From contig CAWBMD010000005.1 of assembly GCA_963789865.1 (NCBI GenBank), positions 15,465 to 79,464 on the forward strand: a stretch of DNA of 64,000 bases, given 5' to 3'. Within the stretch, counting starts at the first letter, position 1; each line of letters starts with the position of its first letter. Under the pieces are notes generated by a model. The model was not told the DNA's origin. It made no database searches and saw only the letters and a program-made list of their open reading frames with translations. Both the position numbers and the translations under genes were made by a program. This stretch comes from an uncultured Chloroflexia bacterium. GTDB taxonomy: Bacteria > Chloroflexota > Limnocylindria > Limnocylindrales > CSP1-4. This document shows positions 3,827 to 52,184 of this stretch, one piece after another.

Positions 3827-4296
3827 GGGCGGTCGTCCGCTTCCACCGCGAGGACAACCGGCTCAGGCTCGGCCGGTGGCACGAGGTAGATCTCCTTGAC
3901 CTCGCGCTGGTTGAGGTAGAAGGCCGACACGACGAAGATCGCCATGTTGACGAAGTTCGGGTCCGCCCAGATCCATAAGGCGATCTGCAGGAGCAGCCCG
4001 ACGCCGGTCAGCAGCATGATGGCGTACCAGCCGAATCGGTGGAACCGCCACAGAGCGACGGCTCCGGCGAGCGCCAGGAGCCCCAGGCCGACGAACAGGT
4101 CGTCGAGGAGGGGGGCCTTGTTCCCGAAGAGGGCCACGAGGCTTCCGCCCCGCGGGCCGAGGAACCCTCCCACGGCCGCCAGGTTGGCGCCAACGTTGGC
4201 CAGCTGGAACAGCACGAGGAGGACGACCCCGAAGGGCCTCGTCCGCCGGCCGACGATCGGTCCGGTCGGGCCTTCCGTCGTTGCGGCCTCGGTCAC
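3823..4296 (-). CDS. small integral membrane protein, 3-4 TM (DoxX-like?); start uncertain
   Basis: Its stop overlaps the start of the upstream gene at 3823-3826, suggesting translational coupling. Hydrophobic helices FGVVLLVLFQLANVGANLAAVGGFL, LFVGLGLLALAGAVALW, AIMLLTGVGLLLQIALWIW. GTG at 4296 taken as a provisional start. Confidence 0.5.
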   Translation of the reverse strand: MTEAATTEGPTGPIVGRRTRPFGVVLLVLFQLANVGANLAAVGGFLGPRGGSLVALFGNKAPLLDDLFVGLGLLALAGAVALWRFHRFGWYAIMLLTGVGLLLQIALWIWADPNFVNMAIFVVSAFYLNQREVKEIYLVPPAEPEPVVLAVEADDRP

Positions 4297-4438
4297 GGTA
4301 GTGCTCCTGCAACTCGACGAACGGAGTGTAGTCGCCGGACTGGCCTCGGTGCCTGACTGGCGCACGCACCGGTCCCTCGTGCCACTGGACGCGAGTTCGA
4401 GTTTGACGATCACGCCCGACCGACCTCATGCTTCACGC

Positions 4439-5329
4439 ATGCCCGGGCTCCACCCTCTCTCGATCCCCGCCCGACCCATGGTCGCCGACGGTGCCATGGG
4501 GACGGCCCTGTTCGCGGCGGGGATGCCCGCCGGGGCGGCGCCCGAGGCCTGGCTGCTGACCGTGGCCGGCGCCGCAGCCATCACGGAGGTGCACCGCGGT
4601 CATGTCCTGGCGGGTGCCCGCATCCTCCTGACCTCGACCTTCGGCGCCAATCCTTTTCGCCTGGCCGGATCCGTCCTTGAGGGGCGCAGCGGCGAGGTCT
4701 GCCGGGCGGCCGTGGCGGCTGCCCGTGCGGCCCGTGGCGCGGCGGCCGGGCCGGCGATGATCGTCGCCGGCAGCCTGGGGCCCACGGGCGGCCTGCTGGC
4801 ACCGTATGGCCCCCTGGACCCGGGTGCCGTCCGGGCGGCGTACGCAGAGGAGGCCGCGTCGCTCGTCGCGGCGGGCGTGGACGTGCTGTGGGTCGAGACG
4901 ATGATGGACCTGCGCGAGGCCGTCGCCGCCGTGGATGGTGCACGCGATGCGGCGCCCGAGGTCCCGGTGATCGCCACGCTGGTGTTCTCGCGGGGACGGA
5001 CGATGTTCGGCGACACGCCGGCCGATGCCGCGGCCACCCTCGCCGGGCACGGAGTCTCGGGCGTGGGTGCCAACTGCGGCGACGGGTTCGCCTCTGTGGA
5101 GGAGGTCATCCCGGCGCTGGCTGCGGCGGCGCCCGGTCTGCACGTGATCGCCAAGGCCAACGCCGGGGTCCCGATACGGCAATCGGACGGGCGGACCGTC
5201 TACCCGGGAACGGCCATCGAGGCGGGGGCGTACGCCCGACGGGTCGCCGACGCCGGCGCGACCATCGTCGGCGGCTGCTGCGGCACGACAGCGGACCACG
5301 TCGCGGCCATCGCGGCCGCACTCGCGTAG
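4439..5329 (+). CDS. homocysteine S-methyltransferase family protein (MmuM/BHMT-like)
   Basis: VADGAMGTALF…LLTSTFGANPF…GVDVLWVETMMDL…GVSGVGANCG…IVGGCCGTT: the Pfam S-methyl_trans signature, including the C-terminal GGCCGT zinc-binding motif. Confidence 0.85.
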   Translation: MPGLHPLSIPARPMVADGAMGTALFAAGMPAGAAPEAWLLTVAGAAAITEVHRGHVLAGARILLTSTFGANPFRLAGSVLEGRSGEVCRAAVAAARAARGAAAGPAMIVAGSLGPTGGLLAPYGPLDPGAVRAAYAEEAASLVAAGVDVLWVETMMDLREAVAAVDGARDAAPEVPVIATLVFSRGRTMFGDTPADAAATLAGHGVSGVGANCGDGFASVEEVIPALAAAAPGLHVIAKANAGVPIRQSDGRTVYPGTAIEAGAYARRVADAGATIVGGCCGTTADHVAAIAAALA

Positions 5330-5392
5330 TCTGGACAGCCGTCGCCGGTCTCCCCGGGCAGGACCACGCCCGCCCTGGCGCCCGGACCGTCG

Positions 5393-5662
5393 CTAGCCTC
5401 GCTTCCGCGGCTTCTCGCCGTCCTCCGTCGCCTGGGCCTCCTCCGCCCGGTGCGCGGCCAGATCCCGCTTCGCCTTGCGGTCGAAGAAGGGGATCACGAA
5501 CGGCATCATGCACAGGCCGGCGATGAACAATGGGATGAACAGCACGAGGACGCCGTTCGCCTGGTCGGGCAGCAGGGCCGTGACCAGTGTCACGCCCAGC
5601 CCATAGCCCAGCAACCCCACCGGCAGCGAGAGCGCGAACAGGATGTTGGGCAGATACCGCAT
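5393..5662 (-). CDS. small membrane protein (2 TM), hypothetical
   Basis: MRYLPNILFALSLPVGLLGYGLGVTLVTALL…VLVLFIPLFIAGLCMMPFVIPFF followed by a charged tail. Its start at 5662 sits 5 nt from the stop of the upstream gene, suggesting an operon. Confidence 0.55.
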   Translation of the reverse strand: MRYLPNILFALSLPVGLLGYGLGVTLVTALLPDQANGVLVLFIPLFIAGLCMMPFVIPFFDRKAKRDLAAHRAEEAQATEDGEKPRKRG

Positions 5663-5666
5663 GGGA

Positions 5667-6398
5667 TCAGGGCAGCTGGCCCGCAACCGGTGGTGCGGCC
5701 TCATACGTCTTCGGGATGGAGCCCGCGTAGTCCACGCCGCCCTCGACGAAGGTGATCTTCTGCATGTCGAGCCCCGTCACCTGGGGAAGGCGCGTCGCGA
5801 GGTACCCGTTGATGGCGTCCTCGGCCTTCGTCTGGAGGAAGCCCGGGACGCCGAAGGCACCGAACTTCAGCGAGTCGAAGTGGACGGTGGCCGCCTGCGG
5901 ACCGGTCACGTCGAGGTGCCACGTTGCGTCGACCGGTCCCGAGAACGGGTAGCCCCAGGGGGCGAAGTCGACCACCGCGCTCGTCTCGACGTAGCCATCG
6001 TGGAACCGGATGTGGACGTCGCTGATCCCGGGGGCAGGCTGGCTGACCTCCGGGAGCGCCATCACCGTGGCCTCGGAGACGGTCTGGTCGAGCGGCACCG
6101 ATCCCGAGAACGTGTGCTTCGACGCGAGGGTGTAGTTCTCCGGGGCCGAGGGAGTCTCGATCCCCAGCTGCTTCTTGAGGGCGGCGTACGAGGCGGCATC
6201 GGCTGGCTGGCCGCCCAGGTCCGCCGCCTTGTCCATCCCGAGGGCCGACGACAGGATCGGGACGTGGACGGCGCCCGTGCACGAGGCGACCAGGACACCC
6301 AGGACGATCAGGACCAGGATCGCGACAAGCAGCTTGCGCACGCGACGTTCCTCCACGCGATCCCGTTGTCCGCGGACCGCCGACGGGGACGCAGCCAT
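5667..6398 (-). CDS. hypothetical secreted lipoprotein
   Basis: N-terminal signal with lipobox (…LIVLGVLVASC). Mature region is T/S/P/G-rich with no recognised catalytic motif. Confidence 0.65.
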   Translation of the reverse strand: MAASPSAVRGQRDRVEERRVRKLLVAILVLIVLGVLVASCTGAVHVPILSSALGMDKAADLGGQPADAASYAALKKQLGIETPSAPENYTLASKHTFSGSVPLDQTVSEATVMALPEVSQPAPGISDVHIRFHDGYVETSAVVDFAPWGYPFSGPVDATWHLDVTGPQAATVHFDSLKFGAFGVPGFLQTKAEDAINGYLATRLPQVTGLDMQKITFVEGGVDYAGSIPKTYEAAPPVAGQLP

Positions 6399-6456
6399 CT
6401 TACCGGCGGATCCGGCCCCTGACGCAGTGTCGGGACGGAGCTCCCTGCAGATCCGT

Positions 6457-7461
6457 TCAGGCGACGGCGACGGGGCGTTCCACGGCGGCGTCCGGTCGGA
6501 GCCTGCGGTCGATGAGGACCCTCACCACGTACGTGATCTCGAGGTCCGCACCGTCGAACGAGGGGGCCGTGTCGAGCGGCAGCGCCAGCGAGACCCCGCC
6601 GTTCCCCGCCCGGAGCTCGTCCGAGGTCGTTGCCTCCACCGCGATGATGCCCTCGGCGCCGTTGGGCGCGTTCGTCCGCCGGTGCAGCTCGATGCGGGCC
6701 GGACCGCCCGGGGCGCCGGGCCACGCGGCACGGACGCCGATCGCTGATCCCGGCGAGGCCGGCAGGGGCGTCGTCACAGAGATGCTCGCCCCGTCGACAT
6801 CGACGGTGTCCAGCATCGCCGTCCCTCCCTGCCTGCCGACGCCGGCGCGGATCAGGTCCGGGTGCTGTGCGATGGGCACCAGCACCGCGACGAAGGCGTC
6901 ATCGCCCATGGCCACGTCCCAGCGTGCCTCGAGCGCCCACGCCACGATGGCCTCGCCCAGGTGCGCGCTCGGCGGTCCAAGCGGCGGCGCCGGCACCCGG
7001 AACGTCGTCTCGAACACCTGGCCAGGGGCGAGGGACGCGGGGATCGCCGGGTCCGCGAACGCGTCCTCCACGAAGAGGCGCCCGTTGGCCTCGACCCAGT
7101 TCTCGGTCGTGGTCGTGTTCTCGCCGGTCCTGTGGGTCTCGCTCTTGCGCTCCTCGACCAGGCGGAGACCCACGAGGCGCAGCGCGGCCTTCCTCGCCGA
7201 CACCGCCTCCACCCCGGTCAGGCGCAACGTTCCCTCGATCCCCTCCCCCACCCGCACCGGACCGGCGAGGCGGAATTCACCGGCGATCCTGCCCGACGAC
7301 TGTTTGATGAGGTCCTCGGCGCGGACCCCATGGAGTGGGTGCGAGCCCTCGTAGCCGGCCAGCCGCGTGCCGTTGGCGGCATCGAAGGGTTCGGGGCAGT
7401 GACCCTGGTGCATCGGGAAGCCGAAGGCTCCGCTGCCGCTGCCGAACGAGATCGAGACCAT
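6457..7461 (-). CDS. hypothetical protein; possibly arrestin-like / SpoOM-like fold (weak)
   Basis: 334-aa ORF with coherent composition, first gene of a three-gene minus-strand operon (6457-7461, 5667-6398, 5393-5662). Family assignment is only an impression. Confidence 0.6.
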   Translation of the reverse strand: MVSISFGSGSGAFGFPMHQGHCPEPFDAANGTRLAGYEGSHPLHGVRAEDLIKQSSGRIAGEFRLAGPVRVGEGIEGTLRLTGVEAVSARKAALRLVGLRLVEERKSETHRTGENTTTTENWVEANGRLFVEDAFADPAIPASLAPGQVFETTFRVPAPPLGPPSAHLGEAIVAWALEARWDVAMGDDAFVAVLVPIAQHPDLIRAGVGRQGGTAMLDTVDVDGASISVTTPLPASPGSAIGVRAAWPGAPGGPARIELHRRTNAPNGAEGIIAVEATTSDELRAGNGGVSLALPLDTAPSFDGADLEITYVVRVLIDRRLRPDAAVERPVAVA

Positions 7462-25051: not shown

Positions 25052-25948
25052 TCAGCCGCGGGCCAGCGCCCGGAGCCCGGACGCCATGACCACCACGAAC
25101 ACCACGACGGCGGCGAGGACGATCCCGACCGCGATCGTCGGTGGCAGGGCGATCGTGGCCGCCTGCTCGCCACCCCATCGCGTGACGGCCATCACGGTGC
25201 CCGCGATCGTCGCGAGGACCGCCACCGCGGTCGCGGCGAGGTCCACTGGTCGCAGGTCGACTCGCCGGTACGACGTCCTCGGCCCGGCGCCCAGGCCGCG
25301 AGCCTCCAGGCTGAGGACGAGCGTCGAGAGACGGTCGAAGGAGCCGGAGACGACGGGAACCAGGGTCGGGACGAGAGCGCCGATCCCGGTCGCGCGCAGG
25401 CCCCGCGAGCGTTGCGCCTGGAGCACCACCCCGAGCTCATGTCGGAGCTGCGGGATGAGCTGCAGCGACAGCATCGCCATCAGCGACACCTCGTAGGGGA
25501 GGCGCAGCCGGCGCAGCGTCGCGAACAGGTCGGAGGGGTGTGTCGTCGCCAGCATCGCGACCCCGACGGTCTCCATCGCGAGCAGGCGGGCAACGAGCGC
25601 CAGGGCGTGCGACATGCCCTCCTGGTACACCGTCAGTGGCCCGAGGCTCGCGACCGGGGTGCACACCGTCCGGCAGGCGACCGGGGCAAGCGCCTGCAGG
25701 ACGATCAGGGAGGCGGCGACGGGCGCGAGCGCGATCACGGTCCGTGCTGCGGCGCGGCCGACGCGAGCCGATGCCGCGAGGAGGAACCCGAGGGTCGCGA
25801 TGACGGCCAGGACGACAGGGTCCCAGGTCGCGAGGACCACGACGACGCAGCCGGCGAGCCAGGCGAGCTTCGGCAGCGGGCTGGCCCGGTGGAGCCAGGA
25901 GCGCCCCGGGACGTAGCCCAGCAGCGCATCGGCGCCCATTCCCGTCAC
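25052..25948 (-). CDS. ECF transporter transmembrane (T) component (EcfT/CbiQ family)
   Basis: Polytopic membrane protein downstream of two ABC ATPases in the same operon. Ends with the conserved Arg-rich coupling region …LQAQRSRGL…. Confidence 0.8.
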   Translation of the reverse strand: MTGMGADALLGYVPGRSWLHRASPLPKLAWLAGCVVVVLATWDPVVLAVIATLGFLLAASARVGRAAARTVIALAPVAASLIVLQALAPVACRTVCTPVASLGPLTVYQEGMSHALALVARLLAMETVGVAMLATTHPSDLFATLRRLRLPYEVSLMAMLSLQLIPQLRHELGVVLQAQRSRGLRATGIGALVPTLVPVVSGSFDRLSTLVLSLEARGLGAGPRTSYRRVDLRPVDLAATAVAVLATIAGTVMAVTRWGGEQAATIALPPTIAVGIVLAAVVVFVVVMASGLRALARG

Positions 25949-26793
25949 GGCGGCCTCTCGCGTGACGATCGCGCCACCGCGAGCTCCCCGACCAGCTCCG
26001 CCACGTCCAGCACCGCGGGAAGGCCGTGGCGCTGCGGCAGCGCGAGGCCGAGCCGCGTGACCTGCGGAGCCAGGAGCCCCCCGGCTTCCAGCATGCCCTC
26101 GTCCGCGAAGACCGACCTGGGTGCGCCGGCCGCGACGATCCGCCCGGCCCCCATAACCACGATCCGGTCCGAGACGGCTGCCAGCAGTCGCATGTCGTGG
26201 GAGATGCAGATCACCGCCACGCCGTCGGCGCGGAGGTCGCCCACGATGCCCGCCACGACGGCCGTCACGCGGTGGTCCTGCCCGGTCGTGGGCTCGTCCA
26301 GCACCAGCACGCGCGGCTCCATCGCCAGGACCGACGCGAGCGCGACGAGCCGCCGGCGCGGCGCCGGCAGCTCAAAGGGCGACAGGGCAAGCACGTCGCC
26401 CAGGCCCAGGCGCGCGGTCACGCGCGCCACGCGCTCCCGAACCTCCGGGTCCGGCAGCCCGAGGTTCCGCGGCCCGAATGCAAGCTCCTCCGTGACGGTC
26501 CTCGCAAACAGCTGCGCGCGCGGGTGCTGGAACACCAGGCCCACGGTTCTGGCGAGCTCGTGGACCTCGTGCTGGCGCGTGTCGAGGCCGTCGACCGTGA
26601 CGGTCCCTGACACCGGGCGGAGGAGCCCGTTGAGGAGCCGCGCCAGCGTGGACTTCCCCGCTCCGTTCGCGCCCGCGATCCCGACGACGCTGCCCGGGCC
26701 GACGTCCAGGGTGACCCCGTCCACGGCGACCGCTCCCCCGGGGTAGCGGTAGCTCGCCTCCCGGAGGACGATGACCGCTCCTGCGCCGGTCAC
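25945..26793 (-). CDS. ECF transporter ATPase (EcfA')
   Basis: Walker A GANGAGKST, Q-loop, signature …, Walker B LVLDEPTTGQD, H-loop ISHD. Confidence 0.9.
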   Translation of the reverse strand: MTGAGAVIVLREASYRYPGGAVAVDGVTLDVGPGSVVGIAGANGAGKSTLARLLNGLLRPVSGTVTVDGLDTRQHEVHELARTVGLVFQHPRAQLFARTVTEELAFGPRNLGLPDPEVRERVARVTARLGLGDVLALSPFELPAPRRRLVALASVLAMEPRVLVLDEPTTGQDHRVTAVVAGIVGDLRADGVAVICISHDMRLLAAVSDRIVVMGAGRIVAAGAPRSVFADEGMLEAGGLLAPQVTRLGLALPQRHGLPAVLDVAELVGELAVARSSRERPP

Positions 26794-27680
26794 GGGACCT
26801 CCGCCAGCCAGCGGATGGCGTCGTCGAGGGTCACGGGCAGGGACCCTCCGGCCTCGCCGGCGAGCGCCGCCGCGACCGCCGTGACATCCGGCACCCGGAC
26901 CCCGGCCTCACGCATGACCGATACCGCGCCGAACACCGTCGCGGGCGAGCCAACAGCGACCAGCATCCCCTCGTGCAGCACGAGGATCCGGTCGGCGCGC
27001 TCGGCCAGGAGCTCCACGTCATGCTCCACGACCACGATCGCAGTGCCATCCCCCACGGCGGCCTCGTGGAGCAGGTCGAAGACCGCGGCGCGTGATCGGG
27101 CGTCGAGCCCGCACGTCGGCTCGTCCAGGACCAGGACCTGGGGGCGGATCGCGAGCGCGCAGGCGAGGGCAAGACGCTGCTGCTCGCCGCCCGAGAGACT
27201 CAGCGGTGGGCGGTCCTGCATGCCGCCGAGCCCGACCCGGGCGAGGATGTCGTCCACCCTGACCACCATCTCGGCGTACGGGACGGCCATCGACTCGAGG
27301 CCCAGAGCCACCTCCTCGCCCACGGTTCCCTGGCTGAGCTGCGCGCCGGGCTCGTCGAACACGATCCCGACCGTCGACGCGAGCCTGCGGACCGGCGTCC
27401 GCAGGGCATCCGCCCCGTTCACGGTCACGGAGCCGGCGACGTTCGCCGGGACCAGCTGTGGAACGATGCCGTTGAGGCATCGGCTCAATGTGGACTTCCC
27501 CGCCCCGTTCAGCCCCACCAGGCCCACCAGCTCGCCCTGCCAGAGGTCGAAGCTGATGCCCGCCAGGGCATCCGACTGTGCCGACCCGTAGCGCACGCGC
27601 AAGTCGCGGACGGACAGCACCGGCGCCATCGGGTTTCCGGTGCGGGCCCGGCTCCCGTCCCGGCGCGGGATCACGGTCAT
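26790..27680 (-). CDS. ECF transporter ATPase (EcfA)
   Basis: Walker A GLNGAGKST, signature LSGGEQQRLALA, Walker B LVLDEPTCGLD, H-loop VVEHD. Confidence 0.9.
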   Translation of the reverse strand: MTVIPRRDGSRARTGNPMAPVLSVRDLRVRYGSAQSDALAGISFDLWQGELVGLVGLNGAGKSTLSRCLNGIVPQLVPANVAGSVTVNGADALRTPVRRLASTVGIVFDEPGAQLSQGTVGEEVALGLESMAVPYAEMVVRVDDILARVGLGGMQDRPPLSLSGGEQQRLALACALAIRPQVLVLDEPTCGLDARSRAAVFDLLHEAAVGDGTAIVVVEHDVELLAERADRILVLHEGMLVAVGSPATVFGAVSVMREAGVRVPDVTAVAAALAGEAGGSLPVTLDDAIRWLAEVP

Positions 27681-27683
27681 GCG

Positions 27684-28367
27684 TCAGGCGGGCGGCTGGA
27701 GGACGACGACGACGAGCGCGAGTGCCACGCCAACCAGGATCCCGACCAGGGCCGCGACCAGCCGCCGGGTGCCCGGTTGCTCGGGGAGGACCGCGCGCGC
27801 CGCCACCGCCGCTGGCAGCGCCGCGGTGAGCGCCAGGCCCGTGTACGCGGAGATGACCTTGTCCGGGACCGAGGACAGGACGCTGGACACCAGCGTGGCG
27901 CGCTCCAGCCCGAAGCTGGCGAGCGCGGCCGTGATCAGGTCAGACGGATGGCCGGTGGCCCCGCCGTACAGATACAGCACGATCGGCGTGGCCAGGACGC
28001 CGGTCACGACACCGACGACGACGGCCAGCAGGAAGAACAGCACGTCGCTGCGCCCCAGGCCCAGTGACCGGATGCCGTAGCCCCAGAGCAGGGCGGCCGC
28101 CATGTTGACGGGGGCGAACATGAGGTTCGAGACGCCGTTGGGCACGACCCCGACTGCGTTGGTGAGCAGGCCCGTGAGTGCGCCCCACCATGGACCGAGG
28201 AGCACGGCCGCCAGGAACGTCCCGATCGTGTCGAGATAGATCGGCAGCCGCAGGAGGCTCGCGGCCCAGTTGGCCACGAAGTTGATGGCGACCGCGAGCG
28301 GGACCAGCGTGATGACGAGCGCGGCGGGCGGTCTGCCCCCGCGTGTCGTGTCCGTCCAGGCCGCCAT
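27684..28367 (-). CDS. ECF transporter substrate-specific (S) component, substrate unknown
   Basis: Six-TM small membrane protein immediately upstream of the EcfA/A'/T genes; LLGPWWGALTGLL…. Confidence 0.75.
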   Translation of the reverse strand: MAAWTDTTRGGRPPAALVITLVPLAVAINFVANWAASLLRLPIYLDTIGTFLAAVLLGPWWGALTGLLTNAVGVVPNGVSNLMFAPVNMAAALLWGYGIRSLGLGRSDVLFFLLAVVVGVVTGVLATPIVLYLYGGATGHPSDLITAALASFGLERATLVSSVLSSVPDKVISAYTGLALTAALPAAVAARAVLPEQPGTRRLVAALVGILVGVALALVVVVLQPPA

Positions 28368-28442: not shown

Positions 28443-28841
28443 TCAGCGGCCCCCTTCGGACTCGACCTCGTCCGGGCGCAGTGGCCGGAAGCGGAGAGCG
28501 GACCATGTCCCATCGACCGCCACCTGCGTGATCGGCCGCAGCCCGTACGGCGCGATGAGCCGCCACAGCGAGTCCCGGTTGATGTCCGCGCGCCCTCCCT
28601 TCGGGTAGACGACCCAGAGGACCGCCCGCGACGCCAGGTCCTCGAGGTTGGCGTCGAGCGTGGCACGGATCGTGGCCGCGTCGTCGGCGATGGCGATGGC
28701 GACGTCGGCCTCCGCGAGAACCTCCACCAGCGTGACGTCCCCGGGGACCGGCCCCAACAGCGATGCCCGGGACGCGTCCGACACCCACACGGCGGTGCCC
28801 GGTTTGATGAGCAACTTCGAGGCCGTCGTCTTCTCGCTCAT
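28443..28841 (-). CDS. DUF3052-like hypothetical protein
   Basis: MSEKTTASKLLIKPGTAVWVSDASRASLLGPVPGDVTLVEVLAEADVAIAIADD… 132 aa. Confidence 0.6.
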   Translation of the reverse strand: MSEKTTASKLLIKPGTAVWVSDASRASLLGPVPGDVTLVEVLAEADVAIAIADDAATIRATLDANLEDLASRAVLWVVYPKGGRADINRDSLWRLIAPYGLRPITQVAVDGTWSALRFRPLRPDEVESEGGR

Positions 28842-28960
28842 GTCCGGTTCCTCCGTCGGCATCAGGCCGTGCCCGTGCACCGATCGCGCCGAGCCGTGAG
28901 ACGGCCGTTGGTCGTAGGCTACGGCGAAGCACCACGCATCCGCATCCCGGGAGACGACCC

Positions 28961-30035
28961 ATGACCGAGCGCTGCGTCCTCCTCATCGGCACCCCGAAGG
29001 GAGCGTTCCTCCTGGAGGCCGGCACCGATCGCCATGACTGGCGGTTGCGGGGACCCGTGGGCCAGGGCTGGCCCATCCACGACATCTCGGTCGAGCCGGG
29101 CACCAACGCCCTGCTCGCGGGAGGCGGCAGCCCCTGGTGGGGCGCCGCCGTCCTCCGGAGCGAGGACCTCGGGGAGACCTGGACCGCACTCCAGCGAGGG
29201 CCTCAGCTATGGGGACGACGGGCCGAAGATCACCACGGTCTGGAACGTCACCGCCAGCGGAGACGCGATCTACGCTGGCGTCGAGCCGGCCGGCCTGTTC
29301 CGCAGCGTCGACAGGGGGCGAACCTGGACGCACGTCTCCGGGCTCACCGGTCACCCGTCGCGTCCGCAGTGGGTCCCCGGCGCCGGGGGCCTGATCCTAC
29401 ACACCATCGTCCCCCACCCCAGCGACCCGGACCGGATGTGGGTGGGGATCTCCTCCGTCGGCGTGTTCGAGACCCGTGATGGCGGTGCCACATGGTCGAC
29501 CCGCAACCGTGGCGTGCGAGCCGATTTCCACCCCGAGAAGTACCCGGAGTTCGGGCAGTGCGTCCACAAGCTGGTCCAGGCCTCCGACGGGTCCGAGCGC
29601 CTGTACCAACAGAACCATTGCGGTGTCTACCGGTCCAATGACGGGGGTATCTCCTGGGACGAGATCACCGAGGGCCTCCCCACGCAGTTCGGCTTCGTGA
29701 TGGCCGCCCACCCGCGGGACCCGGAGACCGTGTGGACCATCCCGCTGACCGAGCCCGAGTCGGGCCGGCTGATGCCGGGCGCCAGCGCCGCGGTCTGGCG
29801 CACCCACGACGGAGGCGGGACGTGGATCCGCGCCGGCGAGGGGCTGCCCCAGGTCGATGCCCATATCGGCGTGCTGCGGGAGGCCATGGCGGTGGACCGT
29901 CTCGACCCCGTGGGCGTCTACTTCGGCACCAGCACCGGACAGCTGTACGCCAGCGCGGACGAGGGCCGGTCCTGGTCACGGATCGCGGAGAACCTGCCGC
30001 CGATCTGGTCAGTGGAGGCCCTGGTCGTTGGGTGA
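28961..30035 (+). CDS. BNR/Asp-box repeat protein (sialidase / Ycf48-like beta-propeller). One apparent frameshift ~29195.
   Basis: Repeated S-x-D-x-G-x-T-W motifs: SEDLGETWT, SVDRGRTWTHV, TRDGGATWS, SNDGGISWDEI, THDGGGTWIR, SADEGRSWSRI. Confidence 0.8.
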
Positions 30036-30312
30036 GCAGGACCCGCGCCCGGCGGTCGTCCACCTGCCGCGGTCGCTCGTCGCGCTGTTCCCGGACTGCC
30101 CCCGGCGGATCGAGGCGACGGGACCGACGGTCGCGGCGGTGATCGCGGACGTGGACCACCGGATCCCCGGCCTGGCGAATCGGGTGCTGGACGCTGGCCC
30201 CAGCCTGCGCCGCCACCTCAACGTCTTCGTCGCCGGCGAGCGCGCCGGCCTCGACACGCCGGTCCCGCCAGGTGCGGAGGTCCACATCATCCCGGCGGTC
30301 TCAGGAGGCTGA
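30028..30312 (+). CDS. MoaD/ThiS-family ubiquitin-like sulfur-carrier protein (C-terminal Gly-Gly)
   Basis: …VVHLPRSLVALFPDCPRRIEATGPTVAAVIADVDHRIPGLANRVLDAGPSLRRHLNVFVAGERAGLDTPVPPGAEVHIIPAVSGG*, a beta-grasp pattern. TTG start at 30028 overlaps the BNR gene stop (30033-30035); GTG/TTG starts further in are also possible. Confidence 0.7.
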   Translation: MGEQDPRPAVVHLPRSLVALFPDCPRRIEATGPTVAAVIADVDHRIPGLANRVLDAGPSLRRHLNVFVAGERAGLDTPVPPGAEVHIIPAVSGG

Positions 30313-30352
30313 GGCCCCTCCCCGGGATCAGCGGAAGCACACCGCTGGTCGC

Positions 30353-31033
30353 TCAGGGGCGCTCGCGGCCCAGCAGGCCCGCCGCGGCGTCGACGGACGC
30401 CCGCTGCTCGTCGGTCTGGAGATGCGCCCGGTCGTGGCTCGACGCATGGGCGAAGCGCCCGAGCAGCTCAGCGAGGTCCCGGAGGCGTTCCAGCTGCCGT
30501 TCCTCCACATCGCCCCATGACCCTGACGCCGGGCGGCGCGCCAGCAGGGCGAGCAGGTGGTGCAGGCAGAACGGCGCGGCCTCGATTGCCGTGGCCCAGG
30601 CAGGATCGGCGACCTGGGCCGCCAGTCCGTCGAGGAGGCCGTCCGCATTCCGCGCGATCCGCACGCAGGCAGGACAGGCCGGTGCGCGTGCGGCATCAGC
30701 CAGGCGTCTCGACCGGCTCCGCCCCCGGGCGACGTGCGCGGCCTCCAGGTCCCGCAGGCGCGTGAGCAGGGTCGCCCGCAGCAGGATGGCCGCCCCCAGG
30801 GTGCCCGACCTGCGCCTGTCGCTCGCGAGGATGGCACGCGAATGCGTCGCGCAGAACCCGCGAGCGGCATCCAGCGTCGCGCGGAACCCGACGTCGTTGA
30901 CGCTCTCCGCGAGGAGCGACTCGAGATAGGCGGCCTCGCCGCGATCGAGCTCACGGCAGATCGGGCACCCGGGACGCTCGAATGCATCGGCGAGGTGGAT
31001 GTCGGCGCCGGAGCGGGCGGGAAGGCGGGACAT
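30353..31033 (-). CDS. hypothetical protein with an internally duplicated CPxC…FCxH motif (putative Zn/Fe-binding; resembles a DUF-type family)
   Basis: 227 aa. CPICRELDRGEAAYLESLL…GFCATH and CPACVRIARNADGLLDGL…PFCLHH, two homologous half-repeats. Coherent composition; the upstream part of ORF 30353..31597 is Arg-rich junk. Confidence 0.65.
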   Translation of the reverse strand: MSRLPARSGADIHLADAFERPGCPICRELDRGEAAYLESLLAESVNDVGFRATLDAARGFCATHSRAILASDRRRSGTLGAAILLRATLLTRLRDLEAAHVARGRSRSRRLADAARAPACPACVRIARNADGLLDGLAAQVADPAWATAIEAAPFCLHHLLALLARRPASGSWGDVEERQLERLRDLAELLGRFAHASSHDRAHLQTDEQRASVDAAAGLLGRERP

Positions 31034-31269
31034 CCCGTCATGGTCGCCTGTTCTCGGGAAGCCTGCCGGGCGTCGGCGGTGGGGTGGTCCAGGCGGTTCG
31101 GCGGTGTTCGCGGCAGTGCCGGAAGACCCGACGACGGGCGGGTCCGCGGCGACCCTGGCGCTGTCGGTCGCGGCGACGGACCCGGCTGGCGGCAGGACCG
31201 TGACCGTTCGTCCCGGGTCCCCCAGCGCCAGGCGAAACGATCCGTGCTCTCGGGAACCAACAACACACA

Positions 31270-31297
31270 GTACTGGTGGGGGTGTACTGGTGGGGGT
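31270..31297. repeat. perfect 14-nt tandem duplication (gtactggtgggggt x2) inside a ~700-bp gene-free region
   Basis: Read directly from the sequence. Confidence 0.8.
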
Positions 31298-31734
31298 TGC
31301 GCACCCGTCGGATAATGGTGTCCTCTCGTCCTTCCCCCGCGGAGGGCGTCCCGGAGGTAGCCGGTGAAGGCGATGCGAACGGCCATGTGGCCAGGCTCGC
31401 GACGGCGCAGGACCCAGTCGCGCCGGTTGACGGCGAGCGAAGACGCATCGCGCGGTGCCCTGAACCCGGTGACGCGTCCCCGCGCGGGCAATCTCTCGGA
31501 TGAATCCCGCGCCGGCAGGCCCGGGCGGTCGGGGGCGTGAGCCCGACCGCCTCCGCTCGCGGGGCCGGTCGTTCGCCCGGCCCCCGAAGCAACCCATGCC
31601 GGGCCGCCGTCCGAGGGGATGGCGGCCCTTCCGATTCCCGGGACGGCGCGGCCATCGTACGGCCGCGGGCGTTGGCGCATGGCCGCGAGTACCGTCACGT
31701 TCCTCGACGCCCGCCCGGCGCTAGACTCGGCGCC

Positions 31735-32604
31735 ATGACCATGAGCCACGACCAACCCGAAGACATCTCCGACGTCCGGCCGGCGACGCCTGGGGAGGCT
31801 TCCGACGTCCGAGCCATGCACGCGGCCAATCGCGCCGCCTGGGACCAGGCGGCGGAGCGGTACGAGGGCTGGTTCGAGGAGTCGGTCGCGCAGATCCGGG
31901 GAGGAGGCTCCAACCTGTTCCCGCTGGAACATGCCCTGATCGGCGACCTCCGGGGCAGTTGCCGACGCGCGATCCACCTCCAGTGCGCGGGCGGGCGGGA
32001 CAGCCTTTCGCTCTGGAACCTGGGTGCGGCGGAGGTCGTCGGGATCGACTTCAGCCCCCGCATGCTGGACCTCGCCCGCAGGTTGACCGAGGCCACCGGC
32101 GCGCCGGCAACCTGGGTTGAGGCCGATGTGCTGGACGTTCCCCACGACCTCGATGGGACGGCTGACCTGCTGTACACGGGTCGAGGGTCGCTCATCTGGC
32201 TCCAGGACCTCGATGCGTGGGCCGCCGTGCTGCGGCGCCTGCTCGCGCCCGAGGGACGCCTGGTGCTCTTCGAGGGACACCCGGCCGAGTGGCTGTTCAC
32301 CGCTGACGAGGACGGGAACTGGGCACTCACCGATTACGACTACTTCGCGGGACCGGAGGCGTCCCGGGGCTGGGCGCCGGCCTACATCGACCGCCTGTCC
32401 ATCCCCGACGGCGAGCAGCACTGGAAGTTCGCGCGGGCGTGGACCATGGGCGAGATCATCACCGCGCTGGTCCGATCCGGTCTGCGTCTCGACGAGGTCG
32501 CCGAGTACCCGGTGGACTGGTGGGCCGGCCACAGGGACGTGAGTCCCGTGGAACGCGGCCGACTTCCGCTGTCCTTCTCGGTGACCGCGACGCGCGGCGC
32601 CTGA
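31735..32604 (+). CDS. class I SAM-dependent methyltransferase
   Basis: Motif I region RRAIHLQCAGGRDSLSLWNLGAAEVVGIDFSPRML (hh-D/E-hGCG-G), a post-I acidic residue, and ~290 aa length. Confidence 0.8.
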   Translation: MTMSHDQPEDISDVRPATPGEASDVRAMHAANRAAWDQAAERYEGWFEESVAQIRGGGSNLFPLEHALIGDLRGSCRRAIHLQCAGGRDSLSLWNLGAAEVVGIDFSPRMLDLARRLTEATGAPATWVEADVLDVPHDLDGTADLLYTGRGSLIWLQDLDAWAAVLRRLLAPEGRLVLFEGHPAEWLFTADEDGNWALTDYDYFAGPEASRGWAPAYIDRLSIPDGEQHWKFARAWTMGEIITALVRSGLRLDEVAEYPVDWWAGHRDVSPVERGRLPLSFSVTATRGA

Positions 32605-49470: not shown

Positions 49471-49596
49471 CCTCGCCCGCGGGGCAACTGCTGCGGGACG
49501 CCTGAATCGGAAGCGCCCCCGGGGCCGAAGGCCCCGGGGGCGCTGTTCGTTCGGTGCCAAGGTCACCGCGGCGACTGCCCGGTTCGAGCGCGCGAC

Positions 49597-52184
49597 CTAC
49601 TTGGCCAGGTGCCGCTGCATCGCCGCCTTGCGGGACAGGTTGACGCGGCCCTGGCGGTCGATCTCGGTGACCACCACCATGACCTCGTCGCCAACGGACA
49701 CGACATCCTCGACGGACGGCACGTGGTAGTCGGCGAGCTCGCCGATCCGGATGAGCCCCTCCTTGCCCGGGCAGGATCTCGACGAAGCAGCCGAACGTCA
49801 TCAGCCGGGTGACCTTGCCCAGGTACAGGGCGCCGATCTCGACCTCGCGGGTGAGGCTCTCGATCCAGTTGATCGCCTTGCGCGAGTTCTCGCCCGAGAC
49901 AGCCGCGATCTCCACGGTGCCGTCGTCCTCGACGTTGATCTCGGTGCCGGTCTCCTCCTGGATCTTGCGGATCATCGATCCGCCCTTGCCGATGATCTCG
50001 CGGATCTTCTCCGGGTTGATCTTGATCGTGATGATCCGCGGAGCGAACTCGGACATCTCCTCGCGCGCCGACGGCAGCACCGAGGTCATCTTGTCGAGGA
50101 TGAACAGGCGGGCGGCGAGCGCCTGCTTGAGGCCCTCGCGGATGACCCGCTCGTCGATGCCCTTGACCTTGATGTCCATCTGGAGGGCGGTGATGCCCTC
50201 CGTGGTGCCCGTCACCTTGAAGTCCATGTCGCCGATCGAGTCCTCCTTGCCGAGGATGTCGGTCAGGACCACGAAGTTGCCCGTGTCGCCATCGATGCAC
50301 GAGGCCCATCGCCGCGCCGGCCACCGGTGCCTTGATCGGCACGCCGGCGTCCATCAGCGCGAGCGTCGAGCCGCACGTCGAGGCCATCGACGTCGAGCCG
50401 TTGCCGGCCACGACCTCGGACACGAGGCGGATGACGTACGGGAACTCCTCCTGCGTCGGGAGCACCGGCAGGAGCGCCCGGGCGGCGAGGTTGCCGTGCC
50501 CGATGTCGCGGCGGGACGGCCCGCGCATCGGCTTGTTCTCGCCGGTGCTGTAGGGCGGGAAGTTGTAGTGGTGGAGGTACCGCTTGGAGAGCTCCGGGCT
50601 GATCGTGTCGATCCGCTGGACGTCAGAGGACGGCCCAAGGGTGGCGACGGTCAGGGCCTGGGTCTGGCCGCGGGTGAACAGGCCGGAGCCGTGCGCACGC
50701 GGCAGGAGGCCGACCTCGACCGAGATCGGGCGGATCTCGTCGGTGGCGCGGCCGTCCATGCGGATGCCCTCGCGCAGGACGAGCTCCCGGACGGCCTTCT
50801 TCTGGACCAGTCCGAACAGGCTCTTGCTCAGGCGCGCGTTGCGACGGGCCGCCTCGAGGAGCCTGGCCGACTCGTCCTTGTCGGTGCGCGTCGCGCGGAC
50901 GGCCGTGGTGATGCCGTCCCTCAGGGTCTCGATCCGGCCGGGCAGGTCGTTGCCGAACCAGATCAGCAGGTTCGCAGTGGCCTCGGCGTCCGGCAGCGCC
51001 CGGTGGTTCTCGGTGAGCTCGACGCCGAAGAAGTTGGCCAACGTCCCGAGCTTGTAGTTCTCGAGATCCGGGTAGCCCTCGCGGGCGATGACGAGCGTAT
51101 CCAGGTACGTGCCCTGCGCGACGCGGGTGCCGTCGCCGAGGGCCTCCTCGATGAACGCGATGTCGAAGCCGACGGAATGGCCGACGAACGGCGCGTCGCC
51201 GACGAACTCCAGCACCTTGCGCGCGGCCTCGGCCGGGCTCGGGGCGCCCTTGACGTCCTTGTCGGTGATGCCGTGCATCTGGTTGCCGACGATCGGACGA
51301 CCGGGGTTCACGAGCGTGGACCACGTGTCGGTGACCTTGCCGCCCTTGACGCGGACCGCCGCGACCTCGACCAGGTCGGCCATCTTCGGGTCCGTGCCGG
51401 TCGTCTCGACGTCCACGACGACGAACTCGCCGCCCGCCTTCGCCAGGTCCGCGAACTTGAGGACGGAGTCGGTGAGCGGCTCGAGGTACGGGATGAGCTT
51501 GGGCTTGCCGACGAGCTCCCGCAGCTTGTCCTGCAGCTCGACGAGCGGCAGCAGCGACCGCTGGGCGAACAGGATCGCCTCGGCCATCACGTCCTCGGGC
51601 AGGATCTTGACCCCCGCCTCGACCATCATGATGGCGTCACGGGTGCCGGAGACGACGAGGTCCAGGTCGGATCCCGCGAGCTCGGTGTAGGTCGGGTTGA
51701 GGACGAACTCCCCGTCGATCCGGCCGACACGCACTGCGCCCACTGGACCCTGGAACGGGATCTCGCTGATGGTCAGCGCGGCGGACGCCGCGATGGTGCC
51801 GAGGACGTCCGGGTCGTTCTCCTGGTCGGTCGAGAGGACCGTGATCACGAGCTGGACGTCGTCCTTGTAGCCCTCGGGGAACAGCGGGCGGATCGGGCGG
51901 TCCGTCAGGCGCGCCGCGAGGGTCGCGGCCTCCGACATCCGGCCTTCGCGCTTGATGAAGCCGCCGGGGATCTTGCCGGCCGCGTACATCCGCTCCTCGA
52001 ATTCGACGGTGAGCGGGAAGAAGTCGAGCCCGGGCCGCGGCAGGCTGCGGTTGGCCGTCCCGAGGACGAGGGTGTCGCCGTAGCGCAGGGTGACGGCGCC
52101 ACCCGCAAGGCCGGCCAGCTTGCCGGTCTCGAGCGTGAGGGTTCGACCGCCGAACTCGATCTCGAGCGTGGTGGGTGTGGGCAC
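49597..52184 (-). CDS. pnp: polyribonucleotide nucleotidyltransferase (PNPase) with an inserted DEDDh 3'-5' exonuclease domain. Two apparent frameshifts (~50275, ~49765).
   Basis: RNase PH-1 (…[22 protein letters not shown]…), then DnaQ-like insert aa ~253-425 ([10 protein letters not shown]…[10 protein letters not shown]…[13 protein letters not shown]), RNase PH-2 (…[14 protein letters not shown]…[10 protein letters not shown]…), and KH/S1 (…[25 protein letters not shown]…GRVNLSRK) in shifted frames. Stop at 49597. Confidence 0.85.

What the first reader, a model, noticed from the sequence alone, without database searches (positions are those of the whole stretch)
30028..32604. Orphan MoaD/ThiS-like Gly-Gly sulfur-carrier gene coupled to a BNR-propeller gene, facing a duplicated-CPxC protein, with a SAM methyltransferase and a ~700-bp gene-free gap
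A ~90-aa beta-grasp protein ending …IIPAVSGG* (30028-30312) begins at a TTG inside the last codons of the BNR-repeat gene. No E1 (MoeB/ThiF), JAMM protease, cysteine synthase or molybdopterin synthase partner is present in the window.

Convergent with it is a 227-aa protein built from two homologous halves, each with CPxC…(G/P)FCxxH, giving a predicted 2x metal or disulfide site. Upstream of that gene is a 700-bp stretch (31034-31734) with no convincing ORF, containing a perfect 14-nt tandem duplication (31270-31297). It ends at a class I SAM methyltransferase.

This assembly of a sulfur carrier, a Cys-motif protein, a methyltransferase and a non-coding gap does not correspond to a system I recognise. 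It could encode a small-molecule or peptide thio-modification pathway or a regulatory RNA. Alternatively the adjacency is coincidental.
Basis: inference. Interest (0 to 1): 0.6.

Follow-up and report, generated by a model that had tools for sequence, protein, structure and literature searches.

The report
Sulfur-carrier/propeller pair and hidden small gene
A small ubiquitin-like "sulfur-carrier" gene is joined to a beta-propeller gene here and in at least four bacterial phyla, with no known function. The neighbouring "empty" 700 bp hold the stump of a deleted gene and an unannotated, strongly conserved 58-codon gene, and the neighbours do not form one pathway.

Summary
The features are real, but the reading as one "assembly" does not hold.

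1. **ThiS/MoaD-like gene (30028-30312).** It ends in ...SGG. Its start overlaps the stop of a 7-bladed Asp-box (BNR) propeller gene by 8 nt.
   - The pair is present in 83/83 related Chloroflexota (Limnocylindria) loci.
   - It recurs in Actinomycetota, Bacteroidota and Betaproteobacteria (Ralstonia, Cupriavidus, Burkholderia), in either gene order.
   - No E1, JAMM, MoaE or cysteine synthase is in the window.
   - Relatives carry a separate MoaD-MoaE fusion, so this gene is not the molybdopterin MoaD.
   - The function is uncharacterised. My best guess is a CysO-like carrier, charged in trans, with the propeller as its dedicated partner.
   - The window's propeller gene carries a +1 frameshift at 29186.
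2. **CPxC protein.** It is DUF6062, with two invariant Cys3His sites. It is a clade-restricted, variably spaced neighbour (35/83 loci).
3. **The "gene-free" gap.** It contains:
   - a relic of a deleted 965-aa Ig-like protein gene;
   - a window-specific 14-nt duplication;
   - an unannotated 58-aa gene (31364-31540) with a Shine-Dalgarno site and a terminator hairpin, under clear protein-level selection.
4. **Methyltransferase (starts 31735).** It has its own leaderless-type promoter box.

Verdict: moderately interesting. It gives a new partner class for a sulfur carrier and a new small-protein family.

The parts
28961..30035 (+). 7-bladed Asp-box (BNR) beta-propeller gene, 357 aa once corrected. 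It is broken in this assembly by an extra G at 29186.
   Evidence: The GC3 frame switches near 29120-29180. A 1-nt insertion is seen against L003, L004, L006 and L007. The corrected protein matches PDB 3b7f at E 2.2e-69. More than 7920 homologues exist.
30028..30312 (+). ThiS/MoaD-family beta-grasp gene, 94 aa, with an invariant C-terminal SGG. Its start overlaps the BNR stop by 8 nt.
   Evidence: Pfam ThiS and NCBIfam SAMP1/moaD_arch hits. 631 homologues, 70-100% identical among the best 120. Invariant ...IPAxSGG. A profile hits CysO-type chains 4n6e_B and 3dwg_C. The overlap or close spacing is conserved.
30353..31036 (-). DUF6062 protein, 227 aa, all-helical, with two invariant Cys3His (CPxC...CxxH) sites.
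   Evidence: Pfam PF19538. 157 homologues, all from the same clade. Invariant Cys/His residues. AF2 model with pLDDT 90 and 11 helices. No PDB fold match.
31127..31232 (+). Relic of the 3' end of a deleted 965-aa Ig-like (FlgD_ig/Big_13/CHU_C) protein gene.
   Evidence: blastn gives 71% identity to L003 14002-14105. The translation PTTGGSAATLALSVAATDPAGGRTVTV is 52% identical to residues 933-959. The intact gene lies between DUF6062 and the small ORF in about 19 relatives.
31270..31297 (.). Perfect 14-nt tandem duplication (GTACTGGTGGGGGT x2). Relatives have a single copy.
   Evidence: TRF score 56. A single copy is seen in L003 and L004. It lies just upstream of the conserved TTGC...GATAAT box.
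31297..31316 (+). Conserved promoter-like box: TTGC (31297-31300) and GATAAT (31311-31316), upstream of the small ORF.
   Evidence: Nearly invariant in 42 aligned loci. It is not a canonical sigma-70 spacing, and the scan found none. Its role as a promoter is inferred.
31353..31540 (+). Unannotated small-protein gene: SD GGAGG 31353-31357, GTG 31364, TGA 31538-31540. 58 aa: MKAMRTAMWPGSRRRRTQSRRLTASEDASRGALNPVTRPRAGNLSDESRAGRPGRSGA.
   Evidence: An ORF of 50-57 aa with an ATG/GTG/TTG start and an SD is present in 41/42 genome loci and 78/80 metagenome loci. Indels are multiples of 3. In 104 unique cores the entropy at codon positions 1/2/3 is 0.62/0.54/1.20, with Ser TCN/AGY and Arg CGN/AGR switches. 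The antisense frame has stops in the core.
31601..31628 (+). Terminator-type hairpin after the small ORF: GGGCCGCCGUCC-GAGG-GGAUGGCGGCCC.
   Evidence: RNAalifold stem with compensatory changes, for example CG 26 / UA 10 and UA 20 / CG 7. It is also in the MFE fold.
31722..31727 (+). TAGACT -10-like box, 7 nt before the methyltransferase ATG (leaderless-type promoter).
   Evidence: TAGACT, TACACT or TACCAT lies 6-9 nt upstream of the start in nearly all 29 methyltransferase loci. Its function is inferred.
31735..32604 (+). Class I SAM-dependent methyltransferase, 289 aa.
   Evidence: Methyltransf_25/11/12. The nearest solved relative is chain 5jdz_A, deposited as 'Methyl transferase' (E 1.2e-8); I recall it as a ToxA-type N-methyltransferase (own knowledge). 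It directly follows the small ORF in 31/41 genome loci.

Best explanation
The region is a lineage-specific synteny block of Limnocylindria-type Chloroflexota. It is made of independent units, not one pathway.

**Unit 1: the propeller-carrier operon.** This is a two-gene, translationally coupled operon: an Asp-box beta-propeller followed by a ThiS/MoaD-like Gly-Gly protein.
- The same module is conserved in at least four phyla.
- Most likely mechanism (inferred): the small protein is a CysO/SAMP-type carrier. Its C-terminal glycine is adenylated and thiocarboxylated by a MoeZ/MoeB-type E1 encoded elsewhere.
- The propeller would be its dedicated partner, the acceptor enzyme or docking protein that receives the Gly-Gly tail. 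This would parallel MoaE, ThiG, CysM or BexX with their carriers.
- The substrate is unknown.
- The module is not the molybdopterin synthase.

**Unit 2: DUF6062.** A separately transcribed, convergent, all-helical protein with two Cys3His metal sites.

**Unit 3: the former "gap".** It contains:
- the stump of a deleted Ig-like surface-protein gene;
- a slippage duplication;
- a stand-alone 58-aa gene with its own upstream box, SD and terminator.

**Unit 4: the methyltransferase.** It is expressed from its own leaderless-type promoter.
For: **Pair (shown)**
- BNR lies directly upstream of ThiS in 83/83 loci.
- The gap from the BNR stop to the conserved ThiS core has a median of 19 nt. Often the only in-frame start overlaps the BNR end by 8 nt.
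- The pair moves as a unit relative to its neighbours (L076 against L067).
- The same pair occurs in these genomes:
  - Arthrobacter and Nonomuraea;
  - Chondrinema;
  - Mitsuaria, Burkholderia, R. solanacearum and C. metallidurans CH34.
- In Chondrinema and the Betaproteobacteria the gene order is reversed, and those partners end ...ALSGG*.

**Carrier identity**
- Pfam ThiS.
- Invariant SGG.
- Best solved relatives are CysO-type chains, then SAMP1.

**E1 and other partners in trans**
- No E1, JAMM, MoaE or PALP in the window.
- No E1 or JAMM in any of the 83 loci.

**Not MoaD**
- Separate ThiS+MoaE fusion genes in L076 and L067.

**Independence of the other units**
-.

**Gap anatomy**
-.
Against: - No biochemical data exist, and the propeller family has no known activity (3b7f function 'not known', PMC2716378).
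- BNR orthologues 41-49% identical in Rhodobacter, Fuscovulum, Marivivens and a Streptomyces lack an adjacent ThiS.
- The Nonomuraea partner ends ...LPALA without Gly-Gly. That fits a non-covalent subunit better than a sulfur carrier.
- An E1 in the same genome could not be checked.
- The window's own propeller gene is frameshifted, so here the module may be inactive, or the assembly may be wrong.
- DUF6062, the small ORF and the methyltransferase do lie within 10 kb of the pair in 35-41 of 83 loci. A functional link inside this clade therefore cannot be formally excluded.
Confidence: 0.65

Rival explanations
1. The block is one RiPP-like thio-modification pathway. The 58-aa ORF would be the precursor peptide, ThiS the sulfur donor, the propeller and DUF6062 the recognition or modification proteins, and the methyltransferase a tailoring enzyme.
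For: - A conserved SD-preceded short ORF sits between DUF6062 and the methyltransferase.
- In about 9 loci it directly follows ThiS on the same strand: L005, L017, L018, L021, L028, L036 and L109, L118, L122.
- All five genes lie within 10 kb in many Limnocylindria loci.
Against: - The BNR-ThiS pair occurs without any of the others in four other phyla and in about half of the clade.
- Distant small-ORF homologues have none of these neighbours. They sit next to an HhH-GPD-like gene instead.
- Intervening genes vary, including a 2.9-kb insertion or deletion.
- The small ORF has its own terminator and the methyltransferase its own promoter box.
- No YcaO, radical-SAM or lanthipeptide-type enzyme is in the window.
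- The conserved part of the peptide has no Cys.
Confidence: 0.06
2. The ThiS-like protein does no sulfur chemistry. It would be a non-covalent beta-grasp subunit or regulator of the propeller, or a SAMP/Urm1-like protein modifier that uses the propeller as target or adaptor.
For: - The Nonomuraea partner lacks Gly-Gly.
- Propeller orthologues work without an adjacent partner.
- The best NCBIfam hit is SAMP1.
- No sulfur-metabolism gene is consistently adjacent.
- Beta-grasp subunits without carrier function are known, for example TmoB (PMC1779556).
Against: - SGG is invariant in 26/26 aligned Limnocylindria sequences and kept in Arthrobacter, Chondrinema and four Betaproteobacteria. That argues for chemistry at the C-terminus.
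- SAMP1 scores 42.8 bits, below the 60-bit cut-off.
- No E1 or JAMM lies nearby for conjugation and deconjugation.
Confidence: 0.22
3. The conserved element in the gap is a structured non-coding RNA or a riboswitch/attenuator leader controlling the methyltransferase, and the ORF is incidental.
For: - Nucleotide identity is 68-86% across 41 loci, with a start-region stem (GCGAUGCG/CGCAUCGC), internal stems with compensatory changes and a 3' hairpin.
- The methyltransferase follows in 31/41 loci.
- Synonymous sites are unusually conserved in the first 20 codons.
Against: - In 104 unique versions of the 30-codon core, entropy at codon positions 1/2/3 is 0.62/0.54/1.20.
- Invariant Ser and Arg are encoded by both TCN/AGY and CGN/AGR.
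- Start codon and SD are conserved in 119 of 122 loci.
- Only 3-nt indels occur inside the ORF.
- The element persists in 10 loci without the methyltransferase and in a distant clade.
- The methyltransferase has its own -10-like box.
- No Rfam hit.
- The folding z-score is only -1.0.
Confidence: 0.05
4. The ThiS-like gene is simply the organism's housekeeping MoaD (molybdopterin synthase small subunit), and the propeller is an unrelated neighbour.
For: - MoaE lies within about 3 kb of the pair in 4 loci.
- In Chondrinema, MoaE, XdhC, a cysteine desulfurase and SufU lie next to the pair.
- The C-terminus ...PAVSGG is MoaD-like.
Against: - Those Limnocylindria MoaE genes are MoaD-MoaE fusions with their own ThiS domain.
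- The pairing with the propeller holds in 83/83 loci and across phyla, whereas MoaE is usually absent.
- The profile matches CysO/SAMP types better than MoaD.
Confidence: 0.04

Closest known systems
CysO with CysM and Mec+ (Mycobacterium tuberculosis cysteine pathway; PDB 3DWG)
   Same: A roughly 90-aa beta-grasp carrier ending in Gly-Gly. It is the second-best solved relative of the family profile (E 5e-10). Its E1 (MoeZ) is encoded elsewhere, as must be the case here (own knowledge of the pathway).
   Different: The partner here is an Asp-box beta-propeller, not a PLP cysteine synthase. No JAMM hydrolase or PALP enzyme is in the window or in the 83 loci.
MoaD-MoaE molybdopterin synthase
   Same: A small Gly-Gly carrier gene tightly coupled to the gene of the protein that receives its tail, with a MoaD-like C-terminus.
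   Different: Relatives have a separate MoaD-MoaE fusion. The partner is not MoaE. TIGR moaD_arch scores only 25.5 bits against a 49.5 cut-off.
Sulfur carriers borrowed by dedicated acceptor enzymes (BexX-CysO 2-thiosugar system of Amycolatopsis orientalis, PDB 4N6E)
   Same: This is the best solved relative of the carrier (E 2.9e-11). In that system a carrier with no E1 of its own serves a specialised acceptor enzyme (own knowledge; Sasaki et al. 2014).
   Different: The acceptor there is a ThiG-like TIM barrel. Here it would be a propeller with no known chemistry.
SAMP1/UbaA archaeal ubiquitin-like modifiers
   Same: The best NCBIfam match (E 5.7e-11). They have dual carrier and modifier potential.
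   Different: The score is below the family cut-off (42.8 against 60). No E1 or JAMM lies nearby, and the host is bacterial.
PDB 3B7F (YP_299179.1, Ralstonia eutropha JMP134): single 7-bladed Asp-box propeller
   Same: Same protein family as the propeller partner (E 2.2e-69 over the full length). Close relatives in Cupriavidus and Ralstonia have the ThiS gene directly upstream.
   Different: It is a structural-genomics entry with function 'not known' (PMC2716378). Its annotation as a glycosyl hydrolase or sialidase is untested.

Membership tests
ThiS/MoaD sulfur-carrier family (PF02597) | Sequence match to the beta-grasp family model | tested here: met
   32.4 bits against a gathering score of 22.5. 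A profile hits CysO, SAMP1 and MoaD chains.
ThiS/MoaD sulfur-carrier family (PF02597) | C-terminal Gly-Gly available for adenylation and thiocarboxylation | tested here: met
   Ends SGG*. S92, G93 and G94 are invariant in 26 sequences. Gly-Gly is kept in Arthrobacter, Chondrinema and Betaproteobacteria but lost in Nonomuraea.
ThiS/MoaD sulfur-carrier family (PF02597) | Cognate E1-like adenylyltransferase (ThiF/MoeB/MoeZ) in the genome | not testable with these tools
   None in the 64-kb window or within 10 kb in 83 loci. The rest of the genome was not available.
ThiS/MoaD sulfur-carrier family (PF02597) | Thiocarboxylate formed and sulfur delivered to an acceptor | not testable with these tools
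   Needs biochemistry.
Molybdopterin synthase (MoaD-MoaE) | Partnered with MoaE and the only MoaD of the genome | tested here: not met
   No MoaE in the window. Relatives carry separate ThiS+MoaE fusion proteins.
CysO/Mec+/CysM cysteine pathway | Adjacent JAMM hydrolase and PLP cysteine synthase | tested here: not met
   No JAB or PALP domain in the window.
SAMP1 (NF041918) | Score at or above the curated cut-off | tested here: not met
   42.8 bits against 60.
Asp-box (BNR) 7-bladed propeller, 3b7f type | Full-length similarity to the solved propeller and Asp-box repeats | tested here: met
   E 2.2e-69, residues 6-353. Pfam BNR and Sortilin-Vps10 hits.
Sialidase / glycoside hydrolase (the usual annotation of the propeller) | Membership of a curated hydrolase family, or presence of catalytic residues | tested here: not met
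   NCBIfam F510_1955 glycosylhydrolase scores 68 bits against a 175 cut-off. BNR_2 is below its cut-off. Sialidase chains score only E 0.45. Catalytic residues were not examined.
DUF6062 (PF19538) | Match to the family model | tested here: met
   39.3 bits against 27. The database annotates homologues as PF19538.
Class I SAM-dependent methyltransferase | Rossmann-type SAM-binding domain | tested here: met
   Methyltransf_25 at 48.1 bits against 27. No specific subfamily reaches its cut-off.
RiPP biosynthetic cluster | Precursor peptide together with a recognised peptide-modifying enzyme, co-conserved | tested here: not met
   A short conserved ORF exists. No YcaO, rSAM or Lan enzyme is in the window, and the ORF's neighbours change between clades.
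Any Rfam RNA family (for the gap) | Covariance-model match | tested here: not met
   No hit at gathering score in the window. Only chance-level hits with E of 1 or more in the gap. No tRNA or tmRNA.

The most novel reading that the evidence does not exclude
The ThiS-like protein and the Asp-box propeller form a previously unrecognised sulfur-transfer (or ubiquitin-like) system. A 7-bladed propeller would be the acceptor enzyme for a protein thiocarboxylate. That would be a new class of carrier-dependent enzyme, present in Chloroflexota, Actinomycetota, Bacteroidota and Betaproteobacteria, including tractable Ralstonia and Cupriavidus strains.
Probability: 0.3. Interest if true: 0.7.

Novelty: new variant of a known kind. 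Interest (0 to 1): 0.45.

Why it matters
**A new partner class for sulfur carriers.**
- ThiS/MoaD-type carriers are known to serve a handful of acceptor enzymes: ThiG, MoaE, CysM, MetY-type enzymes, BexX and tRNA thiolases.
- A carrier that is strictly and widely paired with a beta-propeller of unknown activity points to an unstudied acceptor, or to a new role for a bacterial ubiquitin-like protein.
- It can be tested directly in culturable Ralstonia, Cupriavidus or Burkholderia. It also gives the orphan structure 3B7F a candidate partner.

**A missed small gene.**
- The "gene-free" gap shows how small genes are overlooked.
- A 50-58-aa protein family with an invariant ...PRAGN[IL]SSDTRAG core is under clear purifying selection. 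It is almost never annotated.

**Annotation and assembly cautions.**
- The name "exo-alpha-sialidase" for the propeller is unsupported.
- Frameshifts and small duplications in long-read MAGs need read-level checks.

Tried and rejected
- **Rfam and tRNA/tmRNA scans.** Rfam at gathering score on the window and at E-value threshold on the gap, and a tRNA/tmRNA scan, found nothing.
- **Conserved element read as a structured ncRNA.** I first read it this way. I rejected that once the SD, the start codon, the 3-nt indels and the codon-position statistics were seen.
- **Minus-strand coding frame for the element.** Suggested by GC position bias. Rejected because stops lie inside the conserved core in L003, L005 and L027.
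- **Out-of-frame methyltransferase query.** My first methyltransferase query was out of frame, so its counts are invalid. One search replaces them.
- **Canonical promoter/terminator scan.** None found.
- **Small protein searches.**
  - Pfam and NCBIfam: no family.
  - phmmer against 1.84 billion representatives: only 8 clusters.
  - Single-sequence AF2 of the small protein: pLDDT 60, uninformative.
- **DUF6062 structure.**
  - No PDB sequence hit and no Foldseek PDB match (best E 1.7).
  - Internal duplication of its halves is not detectable.
- **Exact-sequence contig look-up of window proteins.** Not on record.
- **Literature.** No paper mentions DUF6062. None links ThiS/MoaD with BNR propellers.
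- **Not run.**

Full report
**Source and frames.** The window is about 72% G+C. Homologues of its proteins carry names from Chloroflexota / Candidatus Limnocylindrales MAGs. The taxon is therefore inferred from those names.

Position-specific GC content supports these genes:
- a propeller gene, 28961-30035 (+);
- the ThiS-like gene, 30028-30312 (+);
- the CPxC gene, 30353-31036 (-);
- a methyltransferase from 31735 (+).

No strong coding signal shows in 31037-31734.

**The carrier-propeller pair.**

The 94-aa ORF is a ThiS/MoaD-family protein. Pfam gives 32.4 bits against a 22.5 cut-off. Its NCBIfam hits to SAMP1 and archaeal-type MoaD fall below their cut-offs. It has 631 database homologues, and the best 120 are 70-100% identical. 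The C-terminal ...IPAxSGG is invariant. A family profile hits CysO-type chains best (4n6e_B at 2.9e-11, 3dwg_C at 5e-10), then SAMP1.

A scan of one genome per species found 354 relatives. I fetched 80 loci and 3 more by exact look-up. In all 83 the propeller gene lies immediately upstream.
- The distance from the propeller stop to the conserved carrier core has a median of 19 nt.
- In many loci the only in-frame start overlaps the propeller gene by 8 nt, as in the window (TTG 30028, stop 30033-30035, GGAGG 9 nt upstream).
- In L076 and L067 the pair is inverted as a unit relative to the same flanking genes.

The propeller (357 aa after correction) belongs to a family of more than 7920 proteins. 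It matches PDB 3B7F over its full length (E 2.2e-69). That entry is a 7-bladed Asp-box propeller whose function is listed as not known (PMC2716378).

**Distribution of the pair beyond this clade.** tblastn against annotated plasmid and chromid records found propeller homologues in several phyla.

| Organism | ThiS gene adjacent? | Order or note |
|---|---|---|
| Arthrobacter sp. | yes | partner ends ...SVAGG* |
| Nonomuraea gerenzanensis | yes | partner ends ...LPALA*, no Gly-Gly |
| Chondrinema litorale (Bacteroidota) | yes | ThiS then propeller; next to MoaE, XdhC, cysteine desulfurase, SufU |
| Mitsuaria | yes | ThiS then propeller; partner ends QALSGG* |
| Burkholderia sp. | yes | ThiS then propeller; partner ends QALSGG* |
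| R. solanacearum | yes | ThiS then propeller; partner ends QALSGG* |
| C. metallidurans CH34 | yes | ThiS then propeller; partner ends QALSGG* |
| Rhodobacter | no | - |
| Streptomyces sp. NBC_00184 | no | - |
| Marivivens | no | - |
| Fuscovulum | no | - |

Several of these partners pass Pfam ThiS. No third gene is shared between these contexts.

**Missing partners.** tblastn used Ralstonia MoeZ and JAMM and Chondrinema MoaE, cysteine desulfurase, SufU and XdhC as queries.
- None was found in the window.
- No E1 or JAMM was found in any of the 83 loci.
- MoaE was found in four loci.

Those MoaE genes are MoaD-MoaE fusions with their own ThiS domain, so the propeller-linked carrier is not the molybdopterin MoaD. 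Pfam scans of 50 further window genes found no ThiF, JAB, MoaE, PALP, ThiG or rhodanese domain. I found no paper linking ThiS/MoaD proteins to BNR propellers.

**Frameshift.** Relative to four relatives the window has one extra G at 29186, which splits the propeller gene. The protein database holds 100% matches to the window's ThiS and DUF6062 from a 216,778-nt contig, but no 100% propeller protein. The gene is therefore broken in the deposited assembly as well. Many related MAGs are long-read assemblies, so this may be an error or a recent mutation.

**The CPxC protein.**
- It is DUF6062 with only 157 detectable homologues, all in this clade.
- C24, P25, C27, C62, H65 and C121, C124, C157, H160 are invariant.
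- The AF2 model is confident (pLDDT 90) and shows 11 helices. It has no PDB match.
- The two halves are not detectably homologous.
- The gene lies downstream of ThiS, always on the opposite strand, in 35/83 loci. It is directly convergent in about 13 and 1-5 kb away otherwise.
- A Thermomicrobium homologue sits with HEAT, MoxR and DUF58 genes.

**The gap.**

Against the syntenic locus L003, window 31075-31285 replaces 3 kb carrying a 965-aa Ig-like protein gene. Window 31127-31232 still resembles that gene's last 100 nt and translates to a 52%-identical C-terminal fragment. This is a deletion relic. The 14-nt duplication is single-copy in relatives.

Window 31286-31640 is conserved at 68-86% in 41 loci, one copy each, always on the same strand as ThiS. 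I first took it for an RNA, because it has stems with compensatory changes and a 3' hairpin. It in fact encodes a protein:
- a 50-57-codon ORF starts at the same column with ATG, GTG or TTG, 6-12 nt after GGAGG, in 41/42 genome loci and 78/80 metagenome loci;
- internal indels are multiples of three;
- the antisense frame is interrupted in three loci;
- in 104 distinct versions of the 30-codon core the entropy at codon positions 1/2/3 is 0.62/0.54/1.20;
- invariant Ser and Arg are encoded by both codon classes.

The family has an invariant N..T.PRAGN[IL]SSDTRAG core and no Pfam or NCBIfam model. It forms only 8 clusters among 1.84 billion representatives. A resemblance of the C-terminal RAG motifs to ribosome-arrest peptides is only a lead recalled from memory.

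The methyltransferase follows the small ORF in 31/41 loci. However, it starts 6-9 nt after a conserved TAGACT-type box, consistent with a leaderless mRNA (inference from actinobacterial promoters). Distant small-ORF homologues lack the methyltransferase, DUF6062 and the pair. Instead they sit divergent from an HhH-GPD-like gene.

**Verdict.**
The unifying interpretation is not.
- The solid result is a widely conserved, uncharacterised carrier-propeller module, plus an overlooked small gene.
- The mechanism proposed for the module (carrier charged in trans, propeller as acceptor) is inference. The main rival is a non-covalent or conjugation role.

Noticed in passing
window 49563-52184 (-): An 873-aa PNPase-type protein (two RNase_PH domains, RNase_PH_C, PNPase domain). 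It has an RNase_T/DEDD exonuclease domain (PF00929, residues 255-407, E 2.7e-25) inserted between the two halves. This is an unusual architecture.
   Followed up: no
window 29186: An extra G frameshifts the otherwise highly conserved propeller gene. No intact copy of this protein is in the protein database, although its neighbours from the same contig are. It is either an assembly error or a fresh pseudogene.
   Followed up: partly
protein P0241 (from; no locus): A 945-aa ORF made of 11 identical tandem repeats of about 86 aa (258 nt). The repeats are weakly similar to the small-ORF core (...SRRLLAADDAAS...). It could be a concatemeric or rolling-circle assembly. It remains unexplained.
   Followed up: no
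L003 7380-8771 versus window 28841-28959: A BBE/FAD-oxidase gene lies between the 132/145-aa gene and the propeller gene in the closest syntenic relative. It is absent from the window, so this is a second indel in the block.
   Followed up: no
L084 (Rhodobacter sp. CZR27 plasmid) 3601-7128: A propeller orthologue without a ThiS partner is divergently adjacent to egtB-egtD, the ergothioneine biosynthesis genes. This is a single case and possibly coincidental.
   Followed up: no
L089 (Chondrinema litorale plasmid) 2488-7074: The ThiS-propeller pair lies beside a cysteine desulfurase, SufU, MoaE and XdhC. It is the only context found with sulfur-mobilisation and Moco genes.
   Followed up: partly
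window 25052-28367 (-): An ECF-type transporter operon (T component, two ATPases, S component) lies upstream of the block. It is syntenic with L003.
   Followed up: no
L128-L177 (metagenome loci): A second clade of the small-ORF family has the N-terminus MTDRRRSPAPESGRR... It is divergently paired with an HhH-GPD-like gene in 20 loci, and in 4 loci it is followed by an O-methyltransferase-like gene of a different family.
   Followed up: partly
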